Source of the DNA: a virus
Strand: one strand, 5' to 3'
Virus record (IMG/VR): IMGVR_UViG_3300005563_000031
Span: 41,785-105,784 of that record
DNA: 64,000 nucleotides
Shown here: positions 908 to 10,899 of the stretch, one piece after another
Layout: every line of letters starts with the position of its first letter
Position numbering within the stretch: the stretch's first letter is position 1
Program-made: the position numbers and the translations under genes
Notes under the pieces: model-generated
Database searches by the model: none
What the model saw: the letters and a program-made list of their open reading frames with translations, nothing else
What the model was told of the DNA's origin: nothing

Positions 908-2143
908 ATGGAAAAATGGGAACGGGAGGCTAAAACCTTCGCAAAATGGTGGCACACGGGACAGTACCGTAAGTATACCAACGACACCGTGCCGTACTAC
1001 CTGCACTGCGGTGCGGTTGCGCGGTTGCTGAAAACACACGTACCTAGCGCGACGCGCGAAATGATTATCGCAGCGTGGTTACACGACACGCTCGAGGACA
1101 CGGATGTTACGGCGCTTGAAATCTACAATACCTTTGGCTCCGTGGTGCTACAGCACGTCGAGGATCTTACCGAGCGTAAGTACCCCGGCTGCGGTCGACG
1201 CGAACGCAAAGAGCGGGAACTCGCACGACTTTCGCAAGTCTCGATTGGATCTAAAACTATTAAGTTAGCTGATCTACTCGACAATGCGAAGGATATACTC
1301 GAGAAGGACAAGGATTTTGCGGTGGTGTACTTGCGCGAGAAACGCGACTTACTTACCTACGCGCTAAAGGACGGCGATCCGGTGCTGTGGGCGTTGTGCG
1401 ATCGCGTGGTGGAAGACGGTTTAAAACTGTTGTCAGAATTTAAGGGGATTTCCAGCATGAAAACGGGCTTAACAGATATCACGTTAATTGTCGATAGATC
1501 CGGATCGATGAATAAGATTTACAATGACACCATTGGCGGTCTCAATTCCTTTTTGCAATCGCAGCGCGCCGTGGAAGGCGAGGCAGTGTTTTCTGCCGTA
1601 CAGTTTGATGATAAGTACGAACAGGTCGTGACAGGCATCGACATACAACGCGTAACGAATTTCACGCCTGGGTATGACTTTATGCCACGCGGTTCCACAG
1701 CACTGTACGATGCGCTGGGACGCACTATTACGGCTATTGGCGCGCGGTTGAAGGCGTTGTCTGAAGAGGCGCGGCCTGAACGCGTAATGGTCGTGATCGT
1801 TACCGACGGCAAAGAGAACGCGAGCGAGGAATTTACCAAGAAGCAGGTGTTTGATATGATTAAACACCAAACCGACGTGTACAAGTGGGACTTTACCTAC
1901 ATCGGCGCAAACCAGGATTCCATGCAGTCTGGAGCTGCTATCGGCATCGCTGCGAGCAAAACGATGGATTACTCGCATACAGGTGTAGGCGCACGGGGTG
2001 CCTTCGCTGCTGCATCTAACTACACGCACAGTTTCCGGGCCGCCCCAACCCGCGAGGCTGCGAGTGCGAGTGCATTCACGGCCGAGGATCGCAAAGCGGC
2101 GGCGGGCGATAGTGCGGGACTTAAGCCGGACAGTACCGTTTAA
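908..2143 (+). CDS. HD-domain (SpoT/Mesh1-like) hydrolase fused to vWA domain
   Basis: H-x-GQ-x-RK, PYxxH, AAWLHDTLEDT and IKLAD motifs; then DRSGSM (MIDAS), PRGSTALYDA, VIVTDGKENAS; internal SD+ATG at 1457. Confidence 0.85.
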   Translation: MEKWEREAKTFAKWWHTGQYRKYTNDTVPYYLHCGAVARLLKTHVPSATREMIIAAWLHDTLEDTDVTALEIYNTFGSVVLQHVEDLTERKYPGCGRRERKERELARLSQVSIGSKTIKLADLLDNAKDILEKDKDFAVVYLREKRDLLTYALKDGDPVLWALCDRVVEDGLKLLSEFKGISSMKTGLTDITLIVDRSGSMNKIYNDTIGGLNSFLQSQRAVEGEAVFSAVQFDDKYEQVVTGIDIQRVTNFTPGYDFMPRGSTALYDALGRTITAIGARLKALSEEARPERVMVVIVTDGKENASEEFTKKQVFDMIKHQTDVYKWDFTYIGANQDSMQSGAAIGIAASKTMDYSHTGVGARGAFAAASNYTHSFRAAPTREAASASAFTAEDRKAAAGDSAGLKPDSTV

Positions 2144-2185: not shown

Positions 2186-3691
2186 ATGGTCACTGCAGTA
2201 AAGGTACAAGGTAATGCGCTCGTAGACGGCGACGGTACGCCGCTACAGCTGCGCGGTGTAAACTGTTCGGCGCTCGAATTCGTGGCGATCCAATACGCCT
2301 CCGCATCCCCCAAAACCAACTTCGATAACTGGGGCGGCCAAAAGCCGAATCTCAGCGCTGTCAAGTCCTGGGGCGCCAACAGCATCCGTGTGCCTCTCAA
2401 CGAGCAAAGTTACCTTGGACTCGTATGCACTGACCAAACCGGTGCGCAACTTTTGGCAGATCCGGGCGGTAACTACCGCAGTGCTGTGAAAGCGATCGTG
2501 GACAGTGCGACCGCATTGGGGTTGGCGGTGATTTTGGACTTGCACAAGAACACCGCCAACTTCACACCGGCCGGCGCCAGTACGGCAGTGCCTGGCTTGT
2601 CCAACACGAGCGGACAGTCGGAGATGGCGGATGCCGACCACAGCTACGACTTCTGGTCGGCGGTTGCGAACGATTACAAAACCTACCCCAACGTGCTGTT
2701 TGACCTCTTTAACGAGCCGCATATTGACAATTTCCAAAATCCCAGCACTTTCTCACCAAACCCCGGCACTAGCTTGCCGGCAGGACTGAACACCGAAGCG
2801 GCATGGGCGTGGGCTGTGTGGCGCGACGGGGGCACCGGTAAGCTGATCTACGCCAACAACCAGACCTACTCGCAGAACTATGCCTCTGCCGGCATGCAGG
2901 CCATGTTGGATGCCGTGCGCGCGACCGGCGCCACGAACATATGCATGGCGGGCGGGGTATCGTGGGCGCAAGACCTTGCGTTGTGGACGCAGTTTTGTCC
3001 CATCGATCCGATCAAACAACTGGCGTGCTCGTGGCATGCGTACCCGAGCCAACAGAACCCCGCCTACCCGAGCTATCCGCCGGGCACGTGGTGGGGGCAG
3101 CCGAAGGGCTCGTTTGATTACGCAGCCGACATTCTCGCCGCCGGCTACCCGATCATTATCGGCGAAACAGGAGACGATCCCAACAACCAACTCATGCCTG
3201 TACTGTTGCCGTGGGCGGATGCGCACAAAGTATCTGTTACCGCGTGGACATGGGATGTGGGGTGGGGGAATGATTCACTCATTGCGGATGCGAGTGGCAC
3301 ACCTGTAAACACCGGCATCGCGTACAAACAATGGCTTCAAACGCACACCTCCGGAGGTACTCCTGTGTCCACTACCCAAAATGCAGCCCTGTCGATCGCC
3401 TACAACAGCGTGGCCGGTTTCCCGGCGGGCAGCGTCGTTGACCACATCAACGTTGCACTTACGGCGAAAAACAACACCGCCAACACCCCGCCTGCCAAAA
3501 ACGTCGCGCCCGGCACTGCCAATGTGACCTTCACAGGACTCGCACCGGACACGTACCAAATTGCCGTGCAAGCAATGCCAGCGACGGGCAGCGGGTTTGG
3601 CACGCCGGCAAGCGGCTCGATTACCATTACGCAAGTCAACACCACTATCTCGTTGTCGCTGCCAAGCACTGTCACTGCTACACAGCCGTAA
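2186..3691 (+). CDS. GH5 (cellulase-family) glycoside hydrolase with C-terminal Ig/Fn3-like domain
   Basis: LRGVN, WGANSIRVPLN, VILDLH, FDLFNEP (acid/base), SWHAY, PIIIGETG (nucleophile), AWTW. Confidence 0.9.
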   Translation: MVTAVKVQGNALVDGDGTPLQLRGVNCSALEFVAIQYASASPKTNFDNWGGQKPNLSAVKSWGANSIRVPLNEQSYLGLVCTDQTGAQLLADPGGNYRSAVKAIVDSATALGLAVILDLHKNTANFTPAGASTAVPGLSNTSGQSEMADADHSYDFWSAVANDYKTYPNVLFDLFNEPHIDNFQNPSTFSPNPGTSLPAGLNTEAAWAWAVWRDGGTGKLIYANNQTYSQNYASAGMQAMLDAVRATGATNICMAGGVSWAQDLALWTQFCPIDPIKQLACSWHAYPSQQNPAYPSYPPGTWWGQPKGSFDYAADILAAGYPIIIGETGDDPNNQLMPVLLPWADAHKVSVTAWTWDVGWGNDSLIADASGTPVNTGIAYKQWLQTHTSGGTPVSTTQNAALSIAYNSVAGFPAGSVVDHINVALTAKNNTANTPPAKNVAPGTANVTFTGLAPDTYQIAVQAMPATGSGFGTPASGSITITQVNTTISLSLPSTVTATQP

Positions 3692-3975: not shown

Positions 3976-4051
3976 TGGATCACCCGGATGGAATCGAACC
4001 ATCATGTACGATGTTCAAAGCATCGTTGGGATACCAGTAACCCACAGGTGA
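3976..4051 (-). tRNA. tRNA-Gln(TTG)
   Basis: cloverleaf, loop CTTTGAA, encoded CCA. Confidence 0.9.
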
Positions 4052-4054
4052 AAA

Positions 4055-4189
4055 ATGAGTCGATTTGAACGTGTGGTGATCCAACTGCTGATCATTATCG
4101 CTAATAGGGTAGCGCGCAGTGCATCACCTGCAGACAGAATAAACATCGATCACGACGGGTGGCCGATGTACGGCGACAAACCCTTTTAA
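4055..4189 (+). CDS. 44-aa hypothetical protein antisense to the tRNA array
   Basis: ATG..TAA fills the spacer between the two Gln tRNAs; AGGTG upstream. Confidence 0.45.
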   Translation: MSRFERVVIQLLIIIANRVARSASPADRINIDHDGWPMYGDKPF

Positions 4190-4190
4190 A

Positions 4191-4266
4191 TGGATCAGGC
4201 GGTTGGAATCGAACCAACGTGAACTGCGTTCAGAGCGCAGTGGGGATGCCAGCAACCCACACCTGA
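4191..4266 (-). tRNA. tRNA-Gln(CTG)
   Basis: cloverleaf, loop CTCTGAA, CCA. Confidence 0.9.
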
Positions 4267-4274
4267 GAATTTCT

Positions 4275-4457
4275 ATGACAACAGAGAAAACTGCTATTTG
4301 CGGAGCGATCCGGCCTCAAGAAAAGCCTACGTGCCGACGTTCGCAAAAGATTGGCGGGCCGCGCTATGTTTGTGGACGCGAACCGAAGCACGAGGGGCCG
4401 TGCGGCTGCTGGCGGTTTTTGTCGCAGGTCGCTGCTGCGAAATTGGCGGGAAGGTAA
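4275..4457 (+). CDS. small Cys/His-rich hypothetical protein
   Basis: MTTEK...CGREPKHEGPC; occupies the Gln-Trp spacer. Confidence 0.45.
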   Translation: MTTEKTAICGAIRPQEKPTCRRSQKIGGPRYVCGREPKHEGPCGCWRFLSQVAAAKLAGR

Positions 4458-4515
4458 GGAGTTGCACCCTACTTTTGGGGTTTGGAGTCCCATAGCTCGC
4501 TCCGAGCACCGACCC
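4444..4515 (-). tRNA. tRNA-Trp(CCA)
   Basis: loop CTCCAAA, CCA; two acceptor mismatches; T-loop TGCAACT. Confidence 0.8.
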
Positions 4516-4523
4516 GTGAAACT

Positions 4524-4886
4524 ATGCCTATCTACGGTAGTCTAACACTACGCGCACGAATACTGGCAAACGATGAGCCGGCGTGGTTGAAAAAGCACGC
4601 ACGCCGCGATTACATCGTGCAAGTACATCTTGCCACACCACGCTGGTACTCGCGTAAAGAAGTCGTACGGCTTAAGCAGAAGGCGCACGAGCTGTCGAAA
4701 GCGAAACGACGCAAGTACGTACTGGACCACATCATCCCCCTCACACACAAGCGCGTATGCGGTTTAAACGTACACCACAATATGCAAATCATCGATGCCG
4801 GCACGAATGCGCGCAAATCCAATCACTGGTGCGAGTGGCACGGGGAGTTATTCGCGGAACCTGAGCAGTTTCCACTGTTTCGATAG
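4524..4886 (+). CDS. HNH endonuclease
   Basis: ATPRW...DHIIPL...VCGLNVHHNMQII...NARKSN. Confidence 0.8.
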   Translation: MPIYGSLTLRARILANDEPAWLKKHARRDYIVQVHLATPRWYSRKEVVRLKQKAHELSKAKRRKYVLDHIIPLTHKRVCGLNVHHNMQIIDAGTNARKSNHWCEWHGELFAEPEQFPLFR

Positions 4887-4887
4887 C

Positions 4888-4972
4888 GTGCCGGGCGCCG
4901 CGTGCCCATCGGTGCTAGGAAGTTTTGTGGCCCGCAAGCGGGGAAGATTCCTACGACGGGACGCCCATGCAC
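4888..4972 (-). ncRNA. rod-like structured RNA candidate
   Basis: nested helices GGGCG/CGCCC, CCCGTCG/CGATGGG, TAGGAA/TTCCTA, CCCGC/GCGGG. Confidence 0.5.
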
Positions 4973-4974
4973 TC

Positions 4975-5063
4975 TGGCGGAAGGCAGTGAACTCGAATCA
5001 CAAACGCTTATCGCGTTCCATCCGCTTTCCAAGCGGCTCGAGGCCCTGCCTCGTTTACCTTCC
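4975..5063 (-). tRNA. tRNA-Ser(GGA)
   Basis: long variable arm, G73, CCA. Confidence 0.9.
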
Positions 5064-5068
5064 AATGT

Positions 5069-5157
5069 TGGCGGATACCGTAGGAGTCGAACCTACACGG
5101 CCCGTTAAGACCCTAACACCGCTTTCAAGGCGGGCGAGCGCGCCAGTGCGGGTATCC
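5069..5157 (-). tRNA. tRNA-Ser(TGA)
   Basis: long variable arm, loop CTTGAAA, CCA. Confidence 0.9.
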
Positions 5158-5165
5158 GAAAAGTA

Positions 5166-5223
5166 GGTGAGGCCCGGTGCAGCGGATAGCACTTGGACAG
5201 GTGCGTCCACACCGGGGGTCACC
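5166..5223 (-). ncRNA. structured RNA candidate (hairpin with possible pseudoknot)
   Basis: GGTGA/TCACC, CCCGGTG/CACCGGG, TGGAC/GTCCA; loop GCAC complementary to downstream GTGC. Confidence 0.45.
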
Positions 5224-5231
5224 GAGCAGCT

Positions 5232-5275
5232 GAACCGGAACTGCGCTTGTTCCTTACTGGCCTTTCGGCCGGTTC
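5232..5275 (-). ncRNA. three-way-junction RNA motif, copy 1
   Basis: GAACC-[GGCC GAAA GGCC]-AGTAA-[GGAAC..GTTCC]-GGTTC; 22 nt identical to copy at 6119-6140. Confidence 0.65.
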
Positions 5276-5292
5276 GTTTGCGAGTATAAGGG

Positions 5293-5383
5293 CACTTGCG
5301 CGCGGGTGCAGTCGCTTACTGCACCTTGCGTCACGACCAACGCGCAGCAGGAGCGACACTGCCGCCATGGCGTCTAGCAAGTG
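5293..5383 (-). ncRNA. multi-branch RNA with kissing loops
   Basis: closing stem CACTTGC/GCAAGTG, four internal hairpins, complementary loops TCGCT and AGCGA. Confidence 0.55.
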
Positions 5384-5388
5384 TTTTC

Positions 5389-5476
5389 TGGCGGATGGCA
5401 ATGGAGTCGAACCACAAGCGCTTGCGCACTCCATCTGTTTTCGAGGCAGTGCTGACACCGTGTCAGTTTACCATCC
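5389..5476 (-). tRNA. tRNA-Ser(CGA)
   Basis: long variable arm, loop CTCGAAA, CCA. Confidence 0.9.
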
Positions 5477-5490
5477 GTAAAATCTAAGGC

Positions 5491-5567
5491 GGTTAGGTTT
5501 AAGTAGGGGGCAAACCCTTACCCGGCGCCGGGCCCAGCATCACCGCAAGCCCCTACCAGTCTTGACC
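5491..5567. ncRNA. structured RNA candidate (strand uncertain)
   Basis: GTAGG(GG)/(CC)CCTAC closing stem; CCCGG/CCGGG and GGG/CCC hairpins. Confidence 0.35.
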
Positions 5568-5589
5568 AGCAAGTACCGGTAGGAATGTT

Positions 5590-5678
5590 TGGCGGAAAGC
5601 AGTGTACTCGAAACACACACCCGTTAGGATGCCCTCTGTTTAGCAAACAGGTACGAGCGCCTGCCCGTTTTACTTTCC
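5590..5678 (-). tRNA. tRNA-Ser(GCT)
   Basis: long variable arm, loop TTGCTAA, CCA. Confidence 0.9.
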
Positions 5679-5684
5679 GTAAAT

Positions 5685-5763
5685 TGGTCCCCGCAGCAGC
5701 TTGGGGAGCTGCGACCGTCCGGTTAAAAGCCGGATGCTCTTCACCCGTGTGAGCTATACGAGG
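5685..5763 (-). tRNA. tRNA-Lys(TTT) with non-canonical T-loop
   Basis: loop CTTTTAA, all stems intact, CCA; T-arm GCAGC-TCCCCAA-GCTGC. Confidence 0.8.
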
Positions 5764-5769
5764 AATGTT

Positions 5770-5845
5770 TGGTGCTCAGTGATGGAGTTGAACCATCTAT
5801 CTCCGCGTTACGAATGCGGCGCATCGCCGGCAATGCTTACCGAGC
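5770..5845 (-). tRNA. tRNA-Thr(CGT)
   Basis: loop TTCGTAA, CCA. Confidence 0.9.
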
Positions 5846-5945
5846 TTATCGGAATAAGAAGACTGTACCAAACATGCTCGCACCATCGGCAGCAAAACAC
5901 CGCGCGCCATCCTCGTAGTCGTTTGCCGCACTGTCTGCAGTTCAT
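5808..5945 (-). CDS. 45-aa putative zinc-finger protein
   Basis: MNCRQCGKRL...FCCRWC; 3' end overlaps tRNA-Thr. Confidence 0.35.
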   Translation of the reverse strand: MNCRQCGKRLRGWRAVFCCRWCEHVWYSLLIPISSVSIAGDAPHS

Positions 5946-5959
5946 GTTGGAATTATACA

Positions 5960-6034
5960 TGGAGCCCCACGTTGGACTTGCGCCAACCCTCGCTACTTAC
6001 AAGGCAGCTACACCGCTATCTGTGTTTGTAGGGC
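5960..6034 (-). tRNA. tRNA-Thr(TGT)
   Basis: loop CTTGTAA, CCA, T-loop CGCAAGT. Confidence 0.85.
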
Positions 6035-6042
6035 GAAAAGTA

Positions 6043-6087
6043 CCGCCGAGCCCCTGTGCACACGCAGGTATTGGAAAGGCCCGGCGG
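6043..6087 (-). ncRNA. bulged hairpin RNA candidate
   Basis: 10-bp stem CCGCCGGGCC/GGCTCGGCGG, 9-nt bulge, apical hairpin. Confidence 0.4.
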
Positions 6088-6099
6088 ATTTTGCAATTA

Positions 6100-6140
6100 G
6101 AACCAGACGCTGGCGCCTTTACTGGCCTTTCGGCCGGTTC
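6100..6140 (-). ncRNA. three-way-junction RNA motif, copy 2
   Basis: same core as 5232-5275 with a different but still pairing P3 (AGGCG/CGTCT). Confidence 0.65.
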
Positions 6141-6159
6141 AATATGCATACTAACATGT

Positions 6160-6235
6160 TGGTGCCTCACCGACGAATTGCACGTCGCGCCTCATCTTTA
6201 CCAAAGATGCGTTCCGCTCGCAGAACTTGAGAGGC
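6160..6235 (-). tRNA. tRNA-Thr(GGT)
   Basis: loop TTGGTAA, CCA. Confidence 0.9.
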
Positions 6236-6242
6236 AGTAAAT

Positions 6243-6316
6243 TGGCCTCCACGGTTGGACTCGAACCAACAACAGCAAGCCTTCGGAGGGCTCGCGCCGT
6301 ATCCGACGGCGTGGAG
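6243..6316 (-). tRNA. tRNA-Arg(CCG)
   Basis: loop CTCCGAA, short D-arm, CCA. Confidence 0.85.
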
Positions 6317-6323
6317 TTTAAAG

Positions 6324-6397
6324 TGGCACCCCCGGTTGGACTCGAACCAACATATCTGCCGTTCGTAGCGGCGGATCCTTGTTCCGAAGGCAGGGGC
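6324..6397 (-). tRNA. tRNA-Arg(ACG)
   Basis: loop CTACGAA, CCA. Confidence 0.85.
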
Positions 6398-6409
6398 GTA
6401 GAAAACTGT

Positions 6410-6474
6410 CCGGCGGCAGTAGGCGCGAGTACGGCTTGCGCTTTCGCCGCGCACTTACCTTAAAGGCCTGCCGG
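6410..6474 (-). ncRNA. structured RNA candidate
   Basis: CCGGC/GCCGG closing stem; apical CGGC-GAAAGCGCAA-GCCG. Confidence 0.4.
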
Positions 6475-6482
6475 TATGGCCG

Positions 6483-6653
6483 TTACACCGGTTTGTAAAG
6501 GGCTTGGTAGTAAAATAAATGGTTTAGCGTGTCTGAACACAGGCGCTCGCACACTGCCACACCACCGGCCAATAACCACCCTTTGTTTAGGTAGTCAGTG
6601 ACTTCGTTATTAAAGTACTGCAAGTTTGTGTTACTTACTACGATGTATTTCAA
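6483..6653 (-). CDS. DUF1737-like small protein (56 aa)
   Basis: TTG start; KYIVV...FNNEVTDYLNKGWLLAGGV...YYQAL resembles DUF1737; absent from the ORF track. Confidence 0.65.
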   Translation of the reverse strand: MKYIVVSNTNLQYFNNEVTDYLNKGWLLAGGVAVCERLCSDTLNHLFYYQALYKPV

Positions 6654-6656
6654 TGT

Positions 6657-6752
6657 TGGTACTCGATGTAGGATTTGAACCTAACCCGTTGCAGCCAGTC
6701 CGACCGCTCTCGCACGCTTATAAGGCGCACCCGCACACCAGTGCTATCGAGT
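6657..6752 (-). tRNA. tRNA with TAT anticodon (Ile) and long variable arm
   Basis: acceptor ACTCGAT/ATCGAGT, loop CTTATAA, ~27-nt variable region, A73, CCA. Confidence 0.8.
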
Positions 6753-6764
6753 ATTGCTCCTTTC

Positions 6765-6840
6765 CGAGGGGCGGCGGGCAGTGTAGTTAGCGACGCTACA
6801 CTGAGTTGGGAGCTACCCAACCAACCCCGCAGGCCCCTCG
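6765..6840 (-). ncRNA. three-way-junction RNA with kissing loops
   Basis: CGAGGGGC/GCCCCTCG plus GCGGG/CCCGC; hairpins GTTGGG/CCCAAC and CAGTGTAG/CTACACTG; loops TAGC and GCTA. Confidence 0.6.
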
Positions 6841-6850
6841 TACTTCTTTG

Positions 6851-6927
6851 TTGCGGTAGCTGGACTTGCACCAGCCTTAAATCGGCTTATGAAACCGTGG
6901 CGAAACTACCTTCGACCATATACCGCA
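6851..6927 (-). tRNA. tRNA-Met/Ile2(CAT), no encoded CCA
   Basis: loop TTCATAA, acceptor TGCGGTA/TACCGCA. Confidence 0.8.
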
Positions 6928-7099
6928 AAATTGTGCCCGCTTCGCTTTTCATTTCGTGGCAACGGACTAACACGCGGTGGCACCTATCAGCTCCCTACAT
7001 GCATGCAACGCATTTGGGCGGGGATGGAGGCAGGGGTTAGGGAATGCGCATGTCTAGAATACGCCAATACACCTAAAGCCGTACCAACACCCCCATACC

Positions 7100-7174
7100 T
7101 GGTAGCGGGAGAGGGATTCGAACCCCCGACCTTCTGGTTATGAGCCAGACGAGCTACCTCTGCTCTATCCCGCA
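7100..7174 (-). tRNA. tRNA-fMet(CAT)
   Basis: loop CTCATAA, 1:72 mismatch, CCA. Confidence 0.9.
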
Positions 7175-7183
7175 TCAAACAAT

Positions 7184-7239
7184 GCCGCGTTCCTCTTATA
7201 TACCGGATACGCGGCCAACCCGGTATTGCAATTCGAGGA
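7184..7239 (-). ncRNA. H-type pseudoknot RNA
   Basis: S1 ATACCGG/CCGGTAT, S2 GCCGCGT/ACGCGGC, loops 4/2/9 nt, purine-rich L3. Confidence 0.6.
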
Positions 7240-7314
7240 GGTGCTGTTGGGACTATCCTACAGGAGAACAAAGGACAGACCGGACTTATGGACGCTACGT
7301 GTCCCAACAGCACC
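7240..7314 (-). ncRNA. RNA closed by a perfect 14-bp terminal stem
   Basis: GGTGCTGTTGGGAC/GTCCCAACAGCACC around a 47-nt loop. Confidence 0.55.
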
Positions 7315-7344
7315 GACAACCGAACTATACAGCGAACTTTGAAT

Positions 7345-7419
7345 TGGTGCCTCGAGAAGTGCTCGCACCTTCGTATCTGGGTTTTCAGGCCAGCGCTACT
7401 CTGTCTCAGCTATCGAGGC
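7345..7419 (-). tRNA. tRNA-Phe(GAA)
   Basis: loop CTGAAAA, CCA, atypical T-loop. Confidence 0.85.
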
Positions 7420-7425
7420 AAATAC

Positions 7426-7511
7426 TGGTCCTCACGGCTGGACTTGCACCAGCACGCCGGTTAAGGCACAGCGTTCTCAACACTGCGTGTCTGCTGTTTC
7501 ACCACGCGAGG
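7426..7511 (-). tRNA. tRNA-Leu(GAG)
   Basis: long variable arm, loop TTGAGAA, CCA. Confidence 0.9.
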
Positions 7512-7518
7512 AATAGTT

Positions 7519-7767
7519 TCAACGGATCGTTTCAATAGTCTTACCATCCTCGTTCATAATGTAGGCGACGTTGTAGGAACAGGACTGGTCCATTCCCACT
7601 GTTACCTCTGTAGTTTCACCCGGTGCGTCGCCGCACTGTATAACCGCGCACAAGTTTTCCTTGTACGTTACGTGGACGGCTTTCGCCTCACGCACTGATA
7701 TCGCTTCTGTGTATGAGGGCTTAGCGGGCGCTTCTGGCCCGTACTTATAGAATTTTACTGTCAACAT
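7519..7767 (-). CDS. hypothetical protein
   Basis: ORF fills a tRNA spacer; C-terminal AYIMNEDGKTIETI. Confidence 0.75.
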   Translation of the reverse strand: MLTVKFYKYGPEAPAKPSYTEAISVREAKAVHVTYKENLCAVIQCGDAPGETTEVTVGMDQSCSYNVAYIMNEDGKTIETIR

Positions 7768-7797
7768 AGTCTACTCGTCCTACTACTGCTAAGAAAC

Positions 7798-7881
7798 TGG
7801 TACCTCTGGTGAGAGTTGCACTCACACACCTTGCGGCGCCGGAATTTGAAGCCGGTGCGTCTGCTGTTCCGCCACAGAGGC
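7798..7881 (-). tRNA. tRNA-Leu(CAA)
   Basis: loop TTCAAAT, variable arm, CCA. Confidence 0.9.
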
Positions 7882-7887
7882 AAAAGT

Positions 7888-7964
7888 TGGTATCCCCGGC
7901 GGGAGTTGCACCCGCAGTTGAACGGATTTTAAGTCCGCTGTGTCTGCTATTCCACCACGAGGAT
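7888..7964 (-). tRNA. tRNA-Leu(TAA) with short variable loop
   Basis: loop CTTAAAA, 77 nt, CCA. Confidence 0.85.
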
Positions 7965-7967
7965 GAA

Positions 7968-8038
7968 TGGGCACCCACGGTTGGAGTCGAACCAACGCTG
8001 GTAGCTTAGGAGGCCACTTTCGTTCCGCCGACGTGGGT
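7968..8038 (-). tRNA. tRNA-Arg(CCT)
   Basis: loop CTCCTAA, shortened D-arm, 3' end GCCCA. Confidence 0.75.
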
Positions 8039-8039
8039 A

Positions 8040-8201
8040 TCACAGATGAACAGTACCTGCGACTACGGTAATGGCGAGGATAAGGCAGATCAGCAGCACC
8101 GCAATGTGCAGCAGTGGGCCCGGTTTGCCTATCATCGACATGATCGTGATGATCGCAGCGGCGATCAAAAATACGAGAACGAGAATTGCAGCAGCACTCA
8201 T
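8040..8201 (-). CDS. 53-aa two-TM membrane protein
   Basis: AAGGAG SD; two hydrophobic helices. Confidence 0.7.
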   Translation of the reverse strand: MSAAAILVLVFLIAAAIITIMSMIGKPGPLLHIAVLLICLILAITVVAGTVHL

Positions 8202-8259
8202 GTTGGAAACTCCTTTTCTAACACGGGTGGGCGGTAGCAAGTAACGCTCCCGACACAGC

Positions 8260-8332
8260 TGGCACCCTCGGTTGGAGTCGAACCAACAGTCTGCGGCTTA
8301 GAAGGCGCGCTACCGATCCGGCCGGCGAGGGC
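8260..8332 (-). tRNA. tRNA-Arg(TCT)
   Basis: loop CTTCTAA, CCA. Confidence 0.8.
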
Positions 8333-8338
8333 GAAGGG

Positions 8339-8410
8339 TGGAGCGGAAAATGGGAGTCGAACCCATCAGCGGCGTCGTTGGCAACGATACCTCACACCAT
8401 GTGCATCCGC
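8339..8410 (-). tRNA. tRNA-Gly(GCC)
   Basis: loop TTGCCAA, U73, CCA. Confidence 0.85.
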
Positions 8411-8418
8411 ATGTTCAG

Positions 8419-8556
8419 TTCTTTCGTCCGTCCCACTGTTGCATTATGGGCAACCACCCGAGAGGATTTGCCGCTACCTCTGACATCTCCCACTTAAAGG
8501 AGGGAGCGCTCTGGTGCTCTGAGCTACGAGTGTTATCAACAGTCGCCACGAAAGAA
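8419..8556 (-). ncRNA. stalked tRNA-like RNA 1 (core 8454-8533)
   Basis: D-arm GCTC/GAGC, 10-nt anticodon loop, 11-nt T-loop, no CCA; flanks pair ACTGTTG/CAACAGT and TTCTTTCGT/ACGAAAGAA. Confidence 0.7.
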
Positions 8557-8558
8557 TT

Positions 8559-8634
8559 TGGTGCATGCTGTTGGATTCGAACCAACTGCCTCCCGGTTAT
8601 CAGCCGGGTGCGCATCCGTATGTGCCTCGCATGC
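8559..8634 (-). tRNA. tRNA-Ile(GAT)
   Basis: loop CTGATAA, CCA. Confidence 0.9.
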
Positions 8635-8643
8635 GAAATAGAT

Positions 8644-8744
8644 GTGGGTATTTGTCCGGCACCCACCGAGCCGTGCGGCTATTGCAGCGTAACCGCGACA
8701 CCTCCAGCGCTTGCATTGGCACTGGACCGGGCCGTTAAAGGTGT
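8644..8744 (-). ncRNA. multi-hairpin RNA candidate
   Basis: TCCAGTGC/GCGCTGGA, AGCCG/CGGCT, GTGGGT/ACCCAC, ACACC/GGTGT. Confidence 0.35.
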
Positions 8745-8856
8745 AGTGAAGTAGGATGTTTGGATTTGCACCAAGACCTCTGTTATTCCGCACGTCTGCG
8801 GATTCGACAGTGCTCTTCTATGACTGAGCTAACACCCTACATATTCACTATACCTT
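8738..8856 (-). ncRNA. stalked tRNA-like RNA 2 (core 8752-8839, no anticodon loop)
   Basis: 8-bp acceptor, 4-bp T-stem, D-arm; anticodon arm replaced by long hairpin; flanks pair TAGTGAA/TTCACTA and AAGGT/ACCTT. Confidence 0.7.
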
Positions 8857-8861
8857 GAAGT

Positions 8862-8936
8862 TGGTCGGAGTAGTAGGAATCGAACCTACCTTGTCGTGCT
8901 CCCAAAGCACGCGATCAGCCACTGACCCACACTCCG
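8862..8936 (-). tRNA. tRNA-Pro(TGG)
   Basis: loop TTTGGGA, C1-G72, CCA. Confidence 0.9.
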
Positions 8937-8993
8937 ATGGCGAGTGTCTCTCCGCTCCTGTCACGCCTGGATCGCCCGGCGTTCGGCATTGGC

Positions 8994-9071
8994 TGGTGCG
9001 GGTAGCAGGATTTGAACCTACGGCCCCGTGCGCCCGAGGCACGTGCTCTGACCAGACTGAGCTATACCCAC
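8994..9071 (-). tRNA. tRNA-Pro(CGG)
   Basis: loop CTCGGGC, CCA; G1-C72 instead of C1-G72. Confidence 0.85.
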
Positions 9072-9081
9072 ATGTTAGAAT

Positions 9082-9158
9082 TGGAGCACCCGGCCGGACT
9101 TGCACCGACGATTTTAACGCTTTGCAGGCGCCTGCATTTGCTGCTCTGCCACGGGTGC
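9082..9158 (-). tRNA. tRNA-Cys(GCA)
   Basis: loop CTGCAAA, U73, CCA. Confidence 0.9.
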
Positions 9159-9162
9159 GTGT

Positions 9163-9236
9163 TGGAGGGTCGTAATGGAGTCGAACCATTTATGGAGTCC
9201 GGTCACAGCGGAGTCCGGCTACCGAGCCAACGGCCC
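9163..9236 (-). tRNA. tRNA-His(GTG), atypical
   Basis: loop CTGTGAC, CCA; no G-1, U73. Confidence 0.75.
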
Positions 9237-9243
9237 ATTGTTT

Positions 9244-9327
9244 GTGCCTTCCCGCGCACGGCTTGCGGCCGGTCGATCGCGTGGCGCGAGTCACGGCGCA
9301 CTCCGAGGTGCGCTGGGCTTGATCGAC
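9244..9327 (-). ncRNA. structured RNA candidate
   Basis: GTCGATC/GATCGAC, GCGCAC/GTGCGC, CGGC-CGCAA-GCCG. Confidence 0.45.
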
Positions 9328-9332
9328 AAAGT

Positions 9333-9420
9333 TGGTACCTCTGGAGGGAATTGCACCCCCATGCCGTTTTACGGGCGCTGCGGTCTGAACGCAGTGTGTC
9401 TTCTGTTTCACCACAGAGGC
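9333..9420 (-). tRNA. tRNA-Leu(CAG)
   Basis: long variable arm, loop TTCAGAC, CCA. Confidence 0.9.
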
Positions 9421-9429
9421 AAAATGAGC

Positions 9430-9561
9430 ATTAGGACAGTGCGCTGGTGCCGCGTTGGCATTCGCGCAAACCTCCGTTAGACAGCGCTATCTAACATCAT
9501 CGATCCTGCTTTATACAGCTTGCATAGCCCCACTCGATATGGGACACGGCACTGTCCTAAT
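9430..9561 (-). ncRNA. 132-nt multi-branch RNA closed by a perfect 13-bp stem
   Basis: ATTAGGACAGTGC/GCACTGTCCTAAT; internal hairpins; loop ATCGA complementary to TCGAT. Confidence 0.6.
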
Positions 9562-9562
9562 T

Positions 9563-9637
9563 TGGTAGACCGTACGGGATTCGAACCCGCCTAACATGCT
9601 TGAAAGGCACGTTGCATCACCGAGACGCATACGGTCC
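9563..9637 (-). tRNA. tRNA-Glu(TTC)
   Basis: loop CTTTCAA, CCA. Confidence 0.9.
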
Positions 9638-9648
9638 GTAAAATTTAA

Positions 9649-9789
9649 GTGGCTCTGGCGCATAGGGGTACTCGTGTGAGGCGCATGCGCCACTGGCGGA
9701 GACAGGTACCTGGCACGACTTACGCACCGTTGCTGCGTCGTAACCTGCGCTGGCTTGCCAGGCGAGAGCGGTCTGTGCGGCAGAGCTAC
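9649..9789 (-). ncRNA. ~140-nt structured RNA candidate
   Basis: GTAGCTCTG/CAGAGCCAC, CCTGGC/GCCAGG, ACGAC/GTCGT, TGGCGCATG/TATGCGCCA. Confidence 0.5.
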
Positions 9790-9812
9790 TAAGTATACCG
9801 CACGACAAACAC

Positions 9813-9890
9813 TGGTAGACGTGACGAGACTCTAACTCGTTAGGCTACGGTTGAGAACCGCACTGCGCGAGACACTTTGCATTCACGTCC
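9813..9890 (-). tRNA. tRNA-Glu(CTC)
   Basis: loop TTCTCAA, CCA. Confidence 0.85.
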
Positions 9891-9898
9891 ATAAAAAT

Positions 9899-9970
9899 TG
9901 GTGGAGCTGTCGGGAGTTGAACCCGCAGGGTTTCCTTGCAAGGGAGACCCGTTGCCCGCAACACAACCCC
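9899..9970 (-). tRNA. tRNA-Ala(TGC)
   Basis: G3:U70, loop CTTGCAA, CCA. Confidence 0.9.
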
Positions 9971-9986
9971 GTGGTTCTTTGGTCTA

Positions 9987-10053
9987 GCCCAACATCTGAC
10001 GGCTGGGCAGGCGCACATAACAGCAACGTCACCGGTAATTAACTGCTACATGT
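9987..10053 (-). ncRNA. two-hairpin kissing-loop RNA candidate
   Basis: TAGCAG/TTGCTG and GCCCAGC/GTTGGGC hairpins; loops TGACG and CGTCA. Confidence 0.5.
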
Positions 10054-10072
10054 TGATCGCTTTTCGACTTAC

Positions 10073-10148
10073 TGGTAGGCCGCCAGGGATTCGAACCCTG
10101 GACCAACTGGTTAAGAGCCAGCTGCTCTTGCCGCTGAGCTAGCGACCT
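10073..10148 (-). tRNA. tRNA-Lys(CTT)
   Basis: canonical cloverleaf, loop CTCTTAA, CCA. Confidence 0.95.
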
Positions 10149-10156
10149 ATAAAGTT

Positions 10157-10244
10157 ACGCTTCCGGTCATCTGCGCCGAATATCCCGTGGGCTAGTACCC
10201 ACATGCTACAGGACATGGACGGGCGTACAGAGCCGGACTTGCGT
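10157..10244 (-). ncRNA. stalked two-hairpin RNA with possible pseudoknot
   Basis: ACGC/GCGT, TCCGG/CCGGA, TCTG/CAGA, CGCC/GGCG; loop TCCTG vs CGGGA. Confidence 0.5.
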
Positions 10245-10246
10245 TC

Positions 10247-10337
10247 TGGTGCGTCGCGGATGGAATCGAACCTCGTGCCCTAAAGGGACCTGGTTTACAG
10301 CCAGGCGAGCGGCCACCACTCCTTACTTGCGCAACGC
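10247..10337 (-). tRNA. tRNA-Tyr(GTA)
   Basis: loop CTGTAAA, long variable arm, CCA. Confidence 0.85.
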
Positions 10338-10342
10338 ATGGT

Positions 10343-10414
10343 TGGTACCCGATGTGAGGATTGAACTCACTCCACCAACTTTGTAGGAGTCGGCGCCGTC
10401 CCAACGGTCCGGGC
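10343..10414 (-). tRNA. tRNA-Val(TAC)
   Basis: loop CCTACAA (C33), CCA. Confidence 0.8.
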
Positions 10415-10420
10415 ATAAAC

Positions 10421-10648
10421 AAAAAGGATGACAATAGGCGTGCATCAGACGCCTCGTTTTACGTCACGGCTCGCGCCGCTTGGCTAGCTGCTCGCAGGTG
10501 GTCCGTAGACCACCATTTTCGTCACCGCTTCTACCAGCGGCTCCTCGAACGTCGTTAGGCCGACTACCCAGCCAATTCTCGTATCCTCAAAAATCGTTGA
10601 CGACCTATTTTTTATCGTGGTCAGCCGTCAGTGTTTTCCAGTCCTTTT
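10421..10648 (-). ncRNA. ~230-nt large structured RNA candidate
   Basis: terminal AAAAGGA/TCCTTTT, ACGGCT/AGCCGT, TTGGCTGG/CTAGCCAA, GGTGGTC-TACG-GACCACC, AGGCGT/ACGCCT, CCGCT/AGCGG. Confidence 0.6.
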
Positions 10649-10720
10649 TGGCGCCTCCAACGGGACTCGAACCCGTCACCCACTCGATAGACAGTCGAGT
10701 TTCACCCCAGGTGTAGAGGC
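10649..10720 (-). tRNA. tRNA-Asp(GTC)
   Basis: loop CTGTCTA, G73, CCA. Confidence 0.85.
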
Positions 10721-10736
10721 AGGTTCTAACACTTAG

Positions 10737-10810
10737 CTGTAGGCCTGGGGCTCGAACCCAGCGCATCTCCGTTAACAGCGGAGCCTACACGCCCGGTGCA
10801 GTTGCCTACA
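10737..10810 (-). tRNA. tRNA-Asn(GTT), no CCA, acceptor extended by leader-trailer stalk (10725-10823)
   Basis: loop CTGTTAA, G73; flanks TCTAACACTT/AAGTGTTAGA. Confidence 0.85.
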
Positions 10811-10825
10811 GCAAAGTGTTAGATT

Positions 10826-10899
10826 TGGAGCGGACGGTGGGAATCAAACCCACCTCATTGCGTTGGAAGCGCAAGGCCCAGTCACTAGACCACGCCCGC
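10826..10899 (-). tRNA. tRNA-Gly(TCC)
   Basis: loop CTTCCAA, U73, CCA; first tRNA of the operon. Confidence 0.9.

What the first reader, a model, noticed from the sequence alone, without database searches (positions are those of the whole stretch)
8419..8556. Stalked tRNA-like RNA 1 with enlarged anticodon and T loops
Seen: a cloverleaf (CACTCG/CGGGTG acceptor, TA-GCTC..GAGC D-arm, CTCCC/GGGAG stem with 10-nt loop TCCTTTAAGT, AGAGG/CCTCT T-stem with 11-nt loop) and no CCA. Leader and trailer pair (ACTGTTG/CAACAGT and TTCTTTCGT/ACGAAAGAA), mounting it on a long stalk. Stems are intact while loops are expanded, which argues against random decay. The loop resembles Lys (CTTTTAA) or could present TTA (ochre). 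Inference: a non-chargeable tRNA mimic or decoy, for example for tRNA-Lys anticodon nucleases.
Basis: partly seen in the sequence, partly recalled or inferred. Interest (0 to 1): 0.75.

Follow-up and report, generated by a model that had tools for sequence, protein, structure and literature searches.

The report
Stalked, disabled tRNA-like phage cassette
A 138-base insert between two tRNA genes of an uncultured soil phage folds like a tRNA standing on a paired stalk but cannot work as a tRNA; every relative found lacks it, so it is a recent, dispensable add-on with no demonstrated use.

Summary
On the minus strand, 8419-8556 fills the spacer between tRNA-Ile(GAU) and tRNA-Gly(GCC) in a ~7-kb array of about 38 tRNA genes in a 105.8-kb phage. 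It has tRNA cloverleaf geometry with a 6-bp acceptor, 10-nt anticodon loop, 11-nt T loop and no CCA. Its flanks pair into a 9+7 bp stalk (2 of 2000 shuffles as stable).

It is tRNA-derived. ARAGORN and Rfam do not call it, but ARAGORN calls a tRNA once both loops are trimmed to about 7 nt.

The key result is comparative. A ~95%-identical relative in two soil metagenome runs lacks exactly 8411-8556. Six more distant metagenome relatives join tRNA-Gly to the next tRNA by 4-6 nt. No homologue turned up anywhere. The element is therefore a recent, lineage-specific, dispensable single-copy insertion.

It is one of three stalked, CCA-less modules in this array; none of 32 CCA-bearing tRNAs is stalked (p=6e-4).

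I read it as a stalk-clamped tRNA cassette whose cargo is translation-dead, more likely a passenger or pseudogene than a purpose-built decoy. The anticodon-nuclease decoy idea is untested and unsupported. No RNA data exist. Earlier notes of this scan describe similar stalked, CCA-less tRNAs and stem-closed cassettes in other phages.

The parts
8419..8556 (-). Whole module: stalk plus tRNA-like head, 138 nt
   Evidence: The indel in the close relative spans 8411-8556, so the module behaves as one unit.
8548..8556 (-). Outer stalk, 5' arm (TTCTTTCGT); starts 2 nt after the CCA of tRNA-Ile
   Evidence: Pairs with 8419-8427; pair probabilities 0.43-1.0, eight of nine at 0.92 or higher; duplex 2/2000 against shuffles.
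8537..8543 (-). Inner stalk, 5' arm (ACTGTTG)
   Evidence: Pairs with 8435-8441; pair probability about 0.97.
8455..8532 (-). tRNA-like head: 6-bp acceptor, D arm, anticodon arm, 5-nt variable loop, T arm
   Evidence: The cloverleaf is the MFE of the isolated core. ARAGORN calls it a tRNA after loop trimming. Model R1 positions 25-102 hit real tRNAs.
8492..8501 (-). 10-nt anticodon-position loop TCCTTTAAGT. A CCT-CCT tandem at 8498-8503 straddles the stem-loop junction.
   Evidence: Read directly. Removing one CCT leaves the 7-nt loop TTTAAGT, which ARAGORN reads as anticodon TAA.
8466..8476 (-). 11-nt T-position loop TAGCGGCAAAT. It has no T at i with A at i+4, so the standard T-loop motif cannot form.
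   Evidence: With this loop ARAGORN makes no call whatever the anticodon loop.
8435..8441 (-). Inner stalk, 3' arm (CAACAGT)
8419..8427 (-). Outer stalk, 3' arm (ACGAAAGAA); ends 8 nt before tRNA-Gly +1
8559..8634 (-). Upstream neighbour tRNA-Ile(GAU) with encoded CCA
   Evidence: ARAGORN and Rfam at 46.4 bits.
8339..8410 (-). Downstream neighbour tRNA-Gly(GCC) with encoded CCA. Its 5' end (the RNase P site) would set the 3' end of the module's precursor.
   Evidence: ARAGORN at a relaxed threshold. Its 5' half is conserved in seven relatives.
8735..8859 (-). Sister module ('stalked tRNA-like RNA 2'): 5+7 bp stalk, 9-bp acceptor, no CCA, anticodon arm replaced by a long hairpin, T loop TGCAAAT
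   Evidence: I5; z=-5.1. 8706-8854 is replaced by 31 nt in the close relative.
10725..10823 (-). Stalked, CCA-less tRNA-Asn(GUU): 20-bp helix made of the acceptor plus 13 bp of leader-trailer pairing, with canonical loops
   Evidence: I1; z=-5.2. The relative L035 has an unstalked tRNA-Asn with CCA at the same place.

Best explanation
The element is a tRNA-derived cassette of a 'stalked, CCA-less' type that this phage lineage recently inserted between tRNA-Ile and tRNA-Gly in its tRNA operon.

Shown:
- It has a tRNA body.
- Its two flanks form a statistically significant 9+7 bp stalk.
- The stalk's outer end at 8556 is one boundary of the presence/absence indel; the other boundary (8411) lies 8 nt beyond the stalk base.
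- It is single-copy and absent from all seven relatives found.
- It shares stalk and CCA-lessness with two other modules in the array.

Inferred:
- It is co-transcribed with the array, since no promoter or terminator match lies nearby.
- 3' maturation of tRNA-Ile and RNase P cleavage at tRNA-Gly +1 would release a 140-147 nt RNA. The stalk would seal both ends against exonucleases, or could itself be a double-strand processing site of the RNase III type.
- The head cannot be aminoacylated or decode, because it has no CCA, a closed 6-bp acceptor, a 10-nt anticodon loop and an 11-nt T loop that cannot form the T-loop motif.

I judge the cargo most likely to be a disabled tRNA, a passenger or pseudogene. 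Its anticodon loop looks enlarged by a CCT slippage duplication. A purpose-built mimic is less likely.
For: Anatomy and tRNA ancestry:
- Helices and spacings as in a tRNA.
- Stalk significance: 2/2000 shuffles.

Comparative evidence for a recent insertion:
- In runs X4 and X5, contigs about 95% identical in the flanks skip 8411-8556 and carry 4 other letters there. They also skip 8706-8854, which holds the sister module.
- Six metagenome loci holding the same tRNA-Gly have only 4-6 nt before the next tRNA. In L030 and L031 that next tRNA is tRNA-Ile, as in the window.
- The relatives' arrays are compact: 2.1-2.6 kb for tRNA sets that span 5-7 kb here.
- There is no second copy in the genome.

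Class association:
- 3 of 4 CCA-less elements are stalked, against 0 of 32 CCA-bearing tRNAs (p=6e-4).
- L033 holds another stalked cloverleaf.

Other points:
- The CCT-CCT tandem sits at the stem-loop junction. Trimming gives a 7-nt loop that ARAGORN accepts.
- No promoter or terminator match in 7900-9300.
- The net length difference from the relative is 142 nt, not a multiple of 3, so the overlapping ORFs are not coding.
Against: - No RNA data, so transcription, processing and stability are all inferred.
- All 36 base pairs are intact. Both enlarged loops sit exactly where decoding and elbow function would be abolished, which would also fit deliberate disabling.
- The 11-nt T loop is not explained by a simple duplication.
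- The direction of the event (insertion here versus loss elsewhere) rests on parsimony over seven relatives. No donor was found.
- The stalk has two internal loops and is shorter than a classic RNase III substrate.
- The phage encodes no RNase III, CCA-adding enzyme or RtcB of its own, so all processing would depend on the host.
Confidence: 0.45

Rival explanations
1. A purpose-built tRNA mimic. The stalk-protected, non-chargeable tRNA-like RNA accumulates during infection and binds a tRNA-recognising host factor, for example as an uncleavable competitor of an anticodon nuclease, a tRNA-modifying enzyme or a tRNA-sensing defence protein.
For: - Closed ends, no CCA and intact helices, with changes concentrated in the two functional loops.
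- It belongs to a non-random class of stalked, CCA-less modules. One has its anticodon arm replaced by a hairpin.
- Phage tRNA arrays are known counter-measures to tRNA-cleaving defences such as PARIS and PrrC (review PMC11455837, listed, abstract only).
- Bacterial YrlA shows that stalked tRNA mimics exist (PMC4201824).
Against: - No conservation: absent from a 95% relative and six others, and no homologue in any collection.
- The T loop cannot form the tRNA elbow motif.
- A catalytic nuclease is hard to titrate with a decoy.
- The loop is neither the Lys(UUU) nor the Lys(CUU) loop that the array itself encodes.
- The CCT tandem looks like a mutation rather than design.
Confidence: 0.25
2. 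A DNA-level mobile or recombination element of the MITE type. The 'stalk' is a pair of 20-23 nt imperfect terminal inverted repeats, and the tRNA-like interior is only cargo.
For: - One indel boundary coincides with the outer end of the inverted repeat at 8556; the other (8411) lies 8 nt beyond it.
- The arms read as one imperfect inverted repeat with a divergent middle.
- AA stands both before the element and at its end, a possible 2-bp duplication.
Against: - Single copy in the genome, and no copy with the same arms in IMG/VR. Bacterial genomes were scanned only with a D-arm/T-loop pattern of the head, which found nothing.
- The two sister modules have unrelated arms.
- No transposase was looked for beyond the window's annotated large ORFs.
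- The AA duplication is too short to be meaningful.
Confidence: 0.1
3. A working but unconventional decoding tRNA, for example an ochre or frameshift suppressor or a Lys or Leu reader. It would be matured by cutting the stalk and adding CCA post-transcriptionally.
For: - Complete cloverleaf. The loop contains TTT, TTA and TAA triplets.
- The stalked tRNA-Asn in the same array has canonical loops and is the array's only tRNA-Asn. So stalked, CCA-less genes may be matured.
Against: - The 10-nt anticodon loop exceeds the 8-nt enlarged loop of a working tRNA described in PMC7609411.
- The 11-nt T loop has no T-loop motif, and the acceptor is 6 bp.
- Below every tRNA detection threshold.
- The phage has no CCA-adding enzyme.
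Confidence: 0.03
4. A chance fold in an ordinary spacer, with no relation to tRNA.
For: - Whole-molecule MFE z = -0.76.
- No Rfam hit.
Against: - Exact tRNA junction spacings and the TAGCTCAG...GAGCG D-arm signature.
- An ARAGORN call after loop trimming, and reciprocal model hits to tRNAs at E about 1e-8.
- Stalk 2/2000.
Confidence: 0.02

Closest known systems
Pseudo-tRNA / tRNA-like genes inside phage tRNA arrays
   Same: Lies in register with working tRNAs in one operon. Has a tRNA body with features that block decoding. Varies between close relatives.
   Different: All stems are intact, and it is mounted on a significant leader-trailer stalk whose outer end at 8556 is one boundary of the indel. 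It is not a truncated fragment.
Phage T4 stable RNAs 'species 1 and 2' (rnaC, rnaD) in the T4 tRNA cluster (from my own knowledge; no paper in the library was retrieved)
   Same: Small non-tRNA RNAs of about 120-140 nt encoded among phage tRNA genes. They are presumably released by the same processing, and are dispensable with no known function.
   Different: The T4 RNAs are expressed and conserved among T4 relatives. This element is a single-copy oddity without expression data, and sequence homology could not be tested.
Bacterial Y RNA YrlA (Rfam YrlA; Chen et al. 2014, PMC4201824)
   Same: A tRNA mimic with D and T arms joined to a long stem formed by the RNA's two ends. It is not used in translation.
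   Different: - No Rfam hit and no Ro60/TROVE gene in the phage.
- By my reading of that paper, the two ends of YrlA close the helix that leads into the anticodon-arm position, and the 'acceptor' is a closed hairpin; here the stalk extends the acceptor stem.
- The GNCGAAN0-1G motif lies near the 5' end in YrlA. Here a match (GACGAAAG) occurs only in the 3' stalk arm.
RNase III processing stalks (leader-trailer helices around 16S/23S rRNA; phage T7 early sites with internal loops)
   Same: Leader and trailer of an embedded structured RNA pair into a stem interrupted by asymmetric internal loops, inside a long polycistronic precursor.
   Different: - The helices are only 9 and 7 bp.
- No cleavage data exist.
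- The phage has no RNase III gene.
- The embedded RNA is tRNA-like, not rRNA or mRNA.
Phage tRNA variants that escape tRNA-cleaving defences (for example T5 tRNA-Lys against PARIS; review PMC11455837)
   Same: A phage-encoded tRNA-related molecule with an altered anticodon loop, in a large tRNA array.
   Different: The known cases are working, chargeable replacement tRNAs with a 7-nt loop. This element cannot be charged or decode, and nothing links it to a nuclease.

Membership tests
Canonical tRNA (Rfam RF00005) | Scores at or above the family threshold (29 bits), or is called by ARAGORN | tested here: not met
   No RF00005 match even at E<=10 on 161 nt. No ARAGORN call at default, ps80 or ps70.
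Canonical tRNA (Rfam RF00005) | Cloverleaf with 7-bp acceptor, 7-nt anticodon loop and 7-nt T loop with the T54/A58 motif | tested here: not met
   The helix spacings are met, but the acceptor is 6 bp and the loops are 10 and 11 nt. Trimming both loops restores an ARAGORN call.
Canonical tRNA (Rfam RF00005) | Free 3' end with encoded CCA, as in the other tRNAs of this array | tested here: not met
   GTTGCC follows the acceptor, and the trailer pairs with the leader. 32 other array tRNAs encode CCA.
YrlA / bacterial Y RNA | Match to the Rfam YrlA covariance model | tested here: not met
   No match at E<=10.
YrlA / bacterial Y RNA | Ro60 (TROVE) gene within a few kb on the same strand | tested here: not met
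   No PF05731 match in the whole 105.8-kb record; the control genomes were detected.
YrlA / bacterial Y RNA | GNCGAAN0-1G motif near the 5' end (PMC4201824) | tested here: not met
   The only match, GACGAAAG, lies in the 3' stalk arm at 8421-8428.
MITE-like mobile element | Terminal inverted repeats | tested here: met
   Imperfect 20-23 nt inverted arms.
MITE-like mobile element | Multiple copies with the same ends | tested here: not met
   One copy in the genome and none with the same arms in IMG/VR. A separate scan of bacterial genomes with a D-arm/T-loop pattern also found nothing.
Stalked, CCA-less phage tRNA cassettes (a class noted only inside this scan; unpublished as far as I could find) | tRNA body in a phage tRNA array, no encoded CCA, flanks paired into a stalk | tested here: met
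   The association of CCA-lessness with a stalk in this array has p=6e-4.
Stalked, CCA-less phage tRNA cassettes (a class noted only inside this scan; unpublished as far as I could find) | Otherwise canonical, presumably working tRNA (7-nt anticodon loop) | tested here: not met
   10-nt and 11-nt loops. The sister tRNA-Asn at 10725-10823 meets this feature.
RNase III processing stalk | Cleavage by RNase III; roughly two helical turns of double strand | not testable with these tools
   9+7 bp with two internal loops, stacked under a 6+5 bp acceptor/T helix. No cleavage data.

The most novel reading that the evidence does not exclude
Phage tRNA operons carry an undescribed class of exchangeable, stalk-clamped tRNA-body cassettes. 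Some are working tRNAs matured by an unusual route, others deliberately disabled. On this reading the element is a selected, end-protected tRNA mimic that binds or blocks a host tRNA-targeting defence or tRNA-handling enzyme during infection.
Probability: 0.2. Interest if true: 0.75.

Novelty: new variant of a known kind. Interest (0 to 1): 0.4.

Why it matters
If the element were a selected mimic, it would be a phage RNA-level counter-measure of a new kind, and a compact natural scaffold of a tRNA body on a protective stalk.

As things stand, its main value is as one data point for a broader and apparently unpublished pattern. Within phage tRNA arrays, CCA-less tRNA bodies are mounted on leader-trailer stalks and are gained or lost as discrete units between close relatives. 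That pattern bears on how long tRNA precursors are processed and how arrays evolve. It can be tested directly with an isolate or with a transcript made in vitro.

Tried and rejected
Searches for homologues that found nothing useful:
- IMG/VR pattern on the D arm plus anticodon stem returned only ordinary tRNAs.
- IMG/VR pattern on the two enlarged loops: none.
- IMG/VR pattern on both stalk arms with any cargo: none.
- The tRNA-Gly anchor in IMG/VR and in bacterial genomes: none.
- A D-arm/T-loop pattern in bacterial genomes: none.
- blastn-short against the relatives and the own genome gave only chance words.
- Model R1 found tRNAs through its core but no true orthologue. One full-length hit in L033 (5374-5500) borrows its 5' arm from the neighbouring tRNA-Pro and is spurious.

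Searches for related phages:
- The terminase and tail protein found no close phage.
- The cellulase neighbour found L002, a mosaic relative without a tRNA array.
- A pattern for the stalked tRNA-Asn found nothing.

Expression:
- No RNA holder was listed for this DNA, so nothing can be said about expression.
- X2 and X3 had no contig over 8417-8548. I do not count that as evidence.

Isotype of origin:
- Within the phage group the nearest tRNA is tRNA-Phe of L030 (58 of 78 identities).
- An unrelated phage tRNA-Arg(CCU) scores higher (61 of 78).
- I therefore dropped the Phe-derivation and the compensatory-change argument built on it.

Other checks:
- No phage CCA-adding enzyme, RtcB or RNase III.
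- A literature search for T4 species 1 RNA returned nothing.

Full report
**Context.** The window is the right-hand 64 kb of a 105,784-bp IMG/VR virus record that CheckV rates complete. The phage has siphovirus-type head and tail genes: portal, large terminase, tape measure and a GTA-like tail protein. It comes from a rhizosphere metagenome. No GenBank phage is close; the best terminase match is 33% identical. On the minus strand, 3976-10899 holds an array of about 38 tRNA genes. The finding fills the spacer between tRNA-Ile(GAU) at 8559-8634 and tRNA-Gly(GCC) at about 8339-8410.

**Observation.**
- The junctions are those of a tRNA: TA between the acceptor and D stem, one G between the D and anticodon stems, a 5-nt variable loop, and no gap between the T stem and the acceptor.
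- The D arm reads TAGCTCAG...GAGCG.
- The departures are a 6-bp acceptor, a 10-nt anticodon loop, an 11-nt T loop and no CCA.
- ARAGORN does not call it even at relaxed thresholds, and Rfam gives no tRNA, tmRNA or YrlA match at E<=10 on the 161-nt stretch alone.
- The tRNA ancestry is nevertheless clear. The cloverleaf is the minimum-energy fold of the isolated 78-nt core. ARAGORN calls a tRNA as soon as both loops are cut down to about 7 nt. A covariance model built from the element matches ordinary phage tRNAs through its core at up to 39.6 bits.
- The stalk is real. The leader-trailer duplex is -21.9 kcal/mol against -11.0 +/- 2.8 for shuffled flanks, with 2 of 2000 as good. Both stalk helices have pair probabilities above 0.9.
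- The whole molecule is not exceptionally stable (z=-0.76). In context the acceptor helix competes with a small local hairpin.

**The decisive comparison.**
- Public runs were laid on 7900-9300. Two soil metagenome runs from one study, X4 and X5, hold contigs of a relative that differs at 27 of 511 positions in 7900-8410. These contigs go from 8410 directly to 8557 with four other letters between. They also replace 8706-8854 by 31 letters.
- The first gap is the finding plus the 8 nt that follow it.
- A scan of JGI metagenome contigs for the 5' half of the tRNA-Gly gave six loci. In all six, tRNA-Gly is separated from the next tRNA by 4-6 nt. In L030 and L031 that next tRNA is tRNA-Ile, as in the window.
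- The short spacer is therefore ancestral, and the element is an insertion in the window's lineage, later than its split from a ~95%-identical relative.
- The net length difference of 142 nt is not a multiple of three, which rules out the overlapping ORFs as genes.
- The relatives' arrays are compact: 2.1-2.6 kb where the window needs 5-7 kb. This lineage has inflated its array with lineage-specific inserts.
- No homologue of the element exists in the relatives, in the rest of the genome, in IMG/VR or in bacterial genomes by any pattern I could devise.

**A class, not a one-off.**
- I tested every tRNA of the array for pairing between its leader and trailer. Only two stand out. One is the sister module at 8735-8859. 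The other is tRNA-Asn(GUU), whose acceptor continues into a 20-bp helix (10725-10823). Both lack CCA.
- Counting the finding, 3 of 4 CCA-less elements are stalked against 0 of 32 CCA-bearing tRNAs (p=6e-4).
- In relative L035 the tRNA-Asn at the same place has CCA, short flanks and a quite different sequence. So the stalked version looks like a replaced cassette.
- Relative L033 holds another stalked cloverleaf with a Val anticodon.
- The three stalks in the window share no sequence.
- Two further spacers, 9421-9562 and 6753-6849, are closed by strong terminal helices (z about -3.9 and -4.0); a third, 10149-10250, is weaker (z -2.5). None of the three is tRNA-like.
- Earlier notes of this scan describe stalked CCA-less tRNAs and stem-closed cassettes in tRNA arrays of other phages. 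I treat these as leads only. Literature searches found no description of such elements.

**What the odd loops mean.**
- The missing GG in the D loop is not decay. In this array 8 of 9 tRNAs with G at T-loop position 55 lack GG, against 5 of 26 others (p=4e-4). The same T loops occur in the relatives. The element and its sister belong to this class.
- The 10-nt loop contains a CCT-CCT tandem across the stem-loop junction (8498-8503). Removing one copy leaves the 7-nt loop TTTAAGT. This looks like a slippage mutation, although a 3-nt tandem alone is weak evidence.
- The 11-nt T loop has no T at i with A at i+4, so it cannot form the standard T-loop. I found no simple origin for it.
- The isotype of origin cannot be assigned. 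Different trimmings give Lys, Leu or a stop-reading anticodon. The nearest tRNAs are tRNA-Phe within the phage group and an unrelated phage tRNA-Arg(CCU).
- The array already has tRNA-Lys(UUU) and tRNA-Lys(CUU).

**Mechanism.**
- Shown: the architecture, the significance of the stalk, the cassette-like presence/absence, and the class association.
- Inferred: no promoter or terminator match lies within 7900-9300, so the element should be transcribed with the array. RNase P at tRNA-Gly +1 and 3' maturation of tRNA-Ile would then leave a 140-147 nt RNA. Its ends are held in the stalk, which starts 2 nt after the CCA and ends 8 nt before the next tRNA. That should protect it from exonucleases, or offer a double-strand cleavage site.
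- The phage encodes no CCA-adding enzyme, RtcB, RNase III or Ro60.
- The head cannot be charged or decode.
- Because the insertion is recent, its intact stems say nothing about selection in this phage.

**Verdict.**

| Reading | Probability |
|---|---|
| Disabled passenger cargo in a stalk-clamped cassette | 0.45 |
| Selected mimic or decoy | 0.25 |
| DNA-level mobile element | 0.10 |
| Working decoder | 0.03 |
| Chance fold | 0.02 |
| Unassigned | 0.15 |

The comparison with YrlA fails on every defining feature tested.

Noticed in passing
window 3976-10899 (minus strand), e.g. 7426-7511, 7798-7881, 7888-7964, 9082-9158, 9333-9420, 7345-7419, 6160-6235: A class of apparently working tRNAs (Leu x4, Cys, Phe, Thr-GGU) has G instead of U at T-loop position 55 and no G18G19 in the D loop (8 of 9 against 5 of 26 others, p=4e-4). 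The relatives L030-L035 show the same T loops. This is a co-varying, non-standard tRNA elbow.
   Followed up: partly
window 8043-8201 (minus strand): A 53-aa ORF with two hydrophobic stretches and a GGAG 8 nt upstream of its ATG lies inside the tRNA array. Eight of nine nucleotide differences from the ~95% relative fall on third codon positions, so it is a real gene under purifying selection. Its only database relative is 94% identical (P0001).
   Followed up: partly
window 8735-8859 (minus strand): The sister module has a 5+7 bp stalk, a 9-bp acceptor, a 4-bp T stem with loop TGCAAAT and no CCA. Its anticodon arm is replaced by a 4-bp stem, an internal loop, a 6-bp stem and a tetraloop. It folds very stably (z=-5.1). 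8706-8854 is replaced by 31 nt in the close relative.
   Followed up: partly
window 10725-10823 (minus strand): The array's only tRNA-Asn(GUU) has canonical loops, but its acceptor runs on into a 20-bp helix with CTA in place of CCA (z=-5.2). Relative L035 has an ordinary tRNA-Asn with CCA at the same position.
   Followed up: partly
L033:4246-4357 (+): A relative's array holds a cloverleaf with a Val (UAC) anticodon, ACCA and a 7-nt T loop lacking the usual T-psi-C sequence, mounted on a stalk of about 13 bp. ARAGORN's default run misses it.
   Followed up: partly
window 9421-9562, 6753-6849, 10149-10250 (minus strand): Three further inter-tRNA spacers are closed by terminal helices (MFE z -3.9, -4.0 and -2.5) but are not tRNA-like. 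All long spacers of the array are missing from the more distant relatives.
   Followed up: partly
window 908-2143 (+) and 2186-3691 (+): Next to the array are a protein with an HD_4 (RelA/SpoT-type hydrolase) domain plus a weak VWA match, and a GH5 cellulase. The cellulase is 68% identical to one in an otherwise mosaic viral contig (L002).
   Followed up: no
window 5688-5763 (minus strand): tRNA-Lys(UUU) scores 41.6 bits with Rfam but is missed by ARAGORN's default run. Its T loop reads TCCCCAA, another non-standard T loop in this array.
   Followed up: no
window 8592-8608: In the laid contigs the anticodon-stem pair of tRNA-Ile at 8596/8604 changes from G-C to C-G on both sides. The contigs carrying it may come from other organisms.
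   Followed up: no
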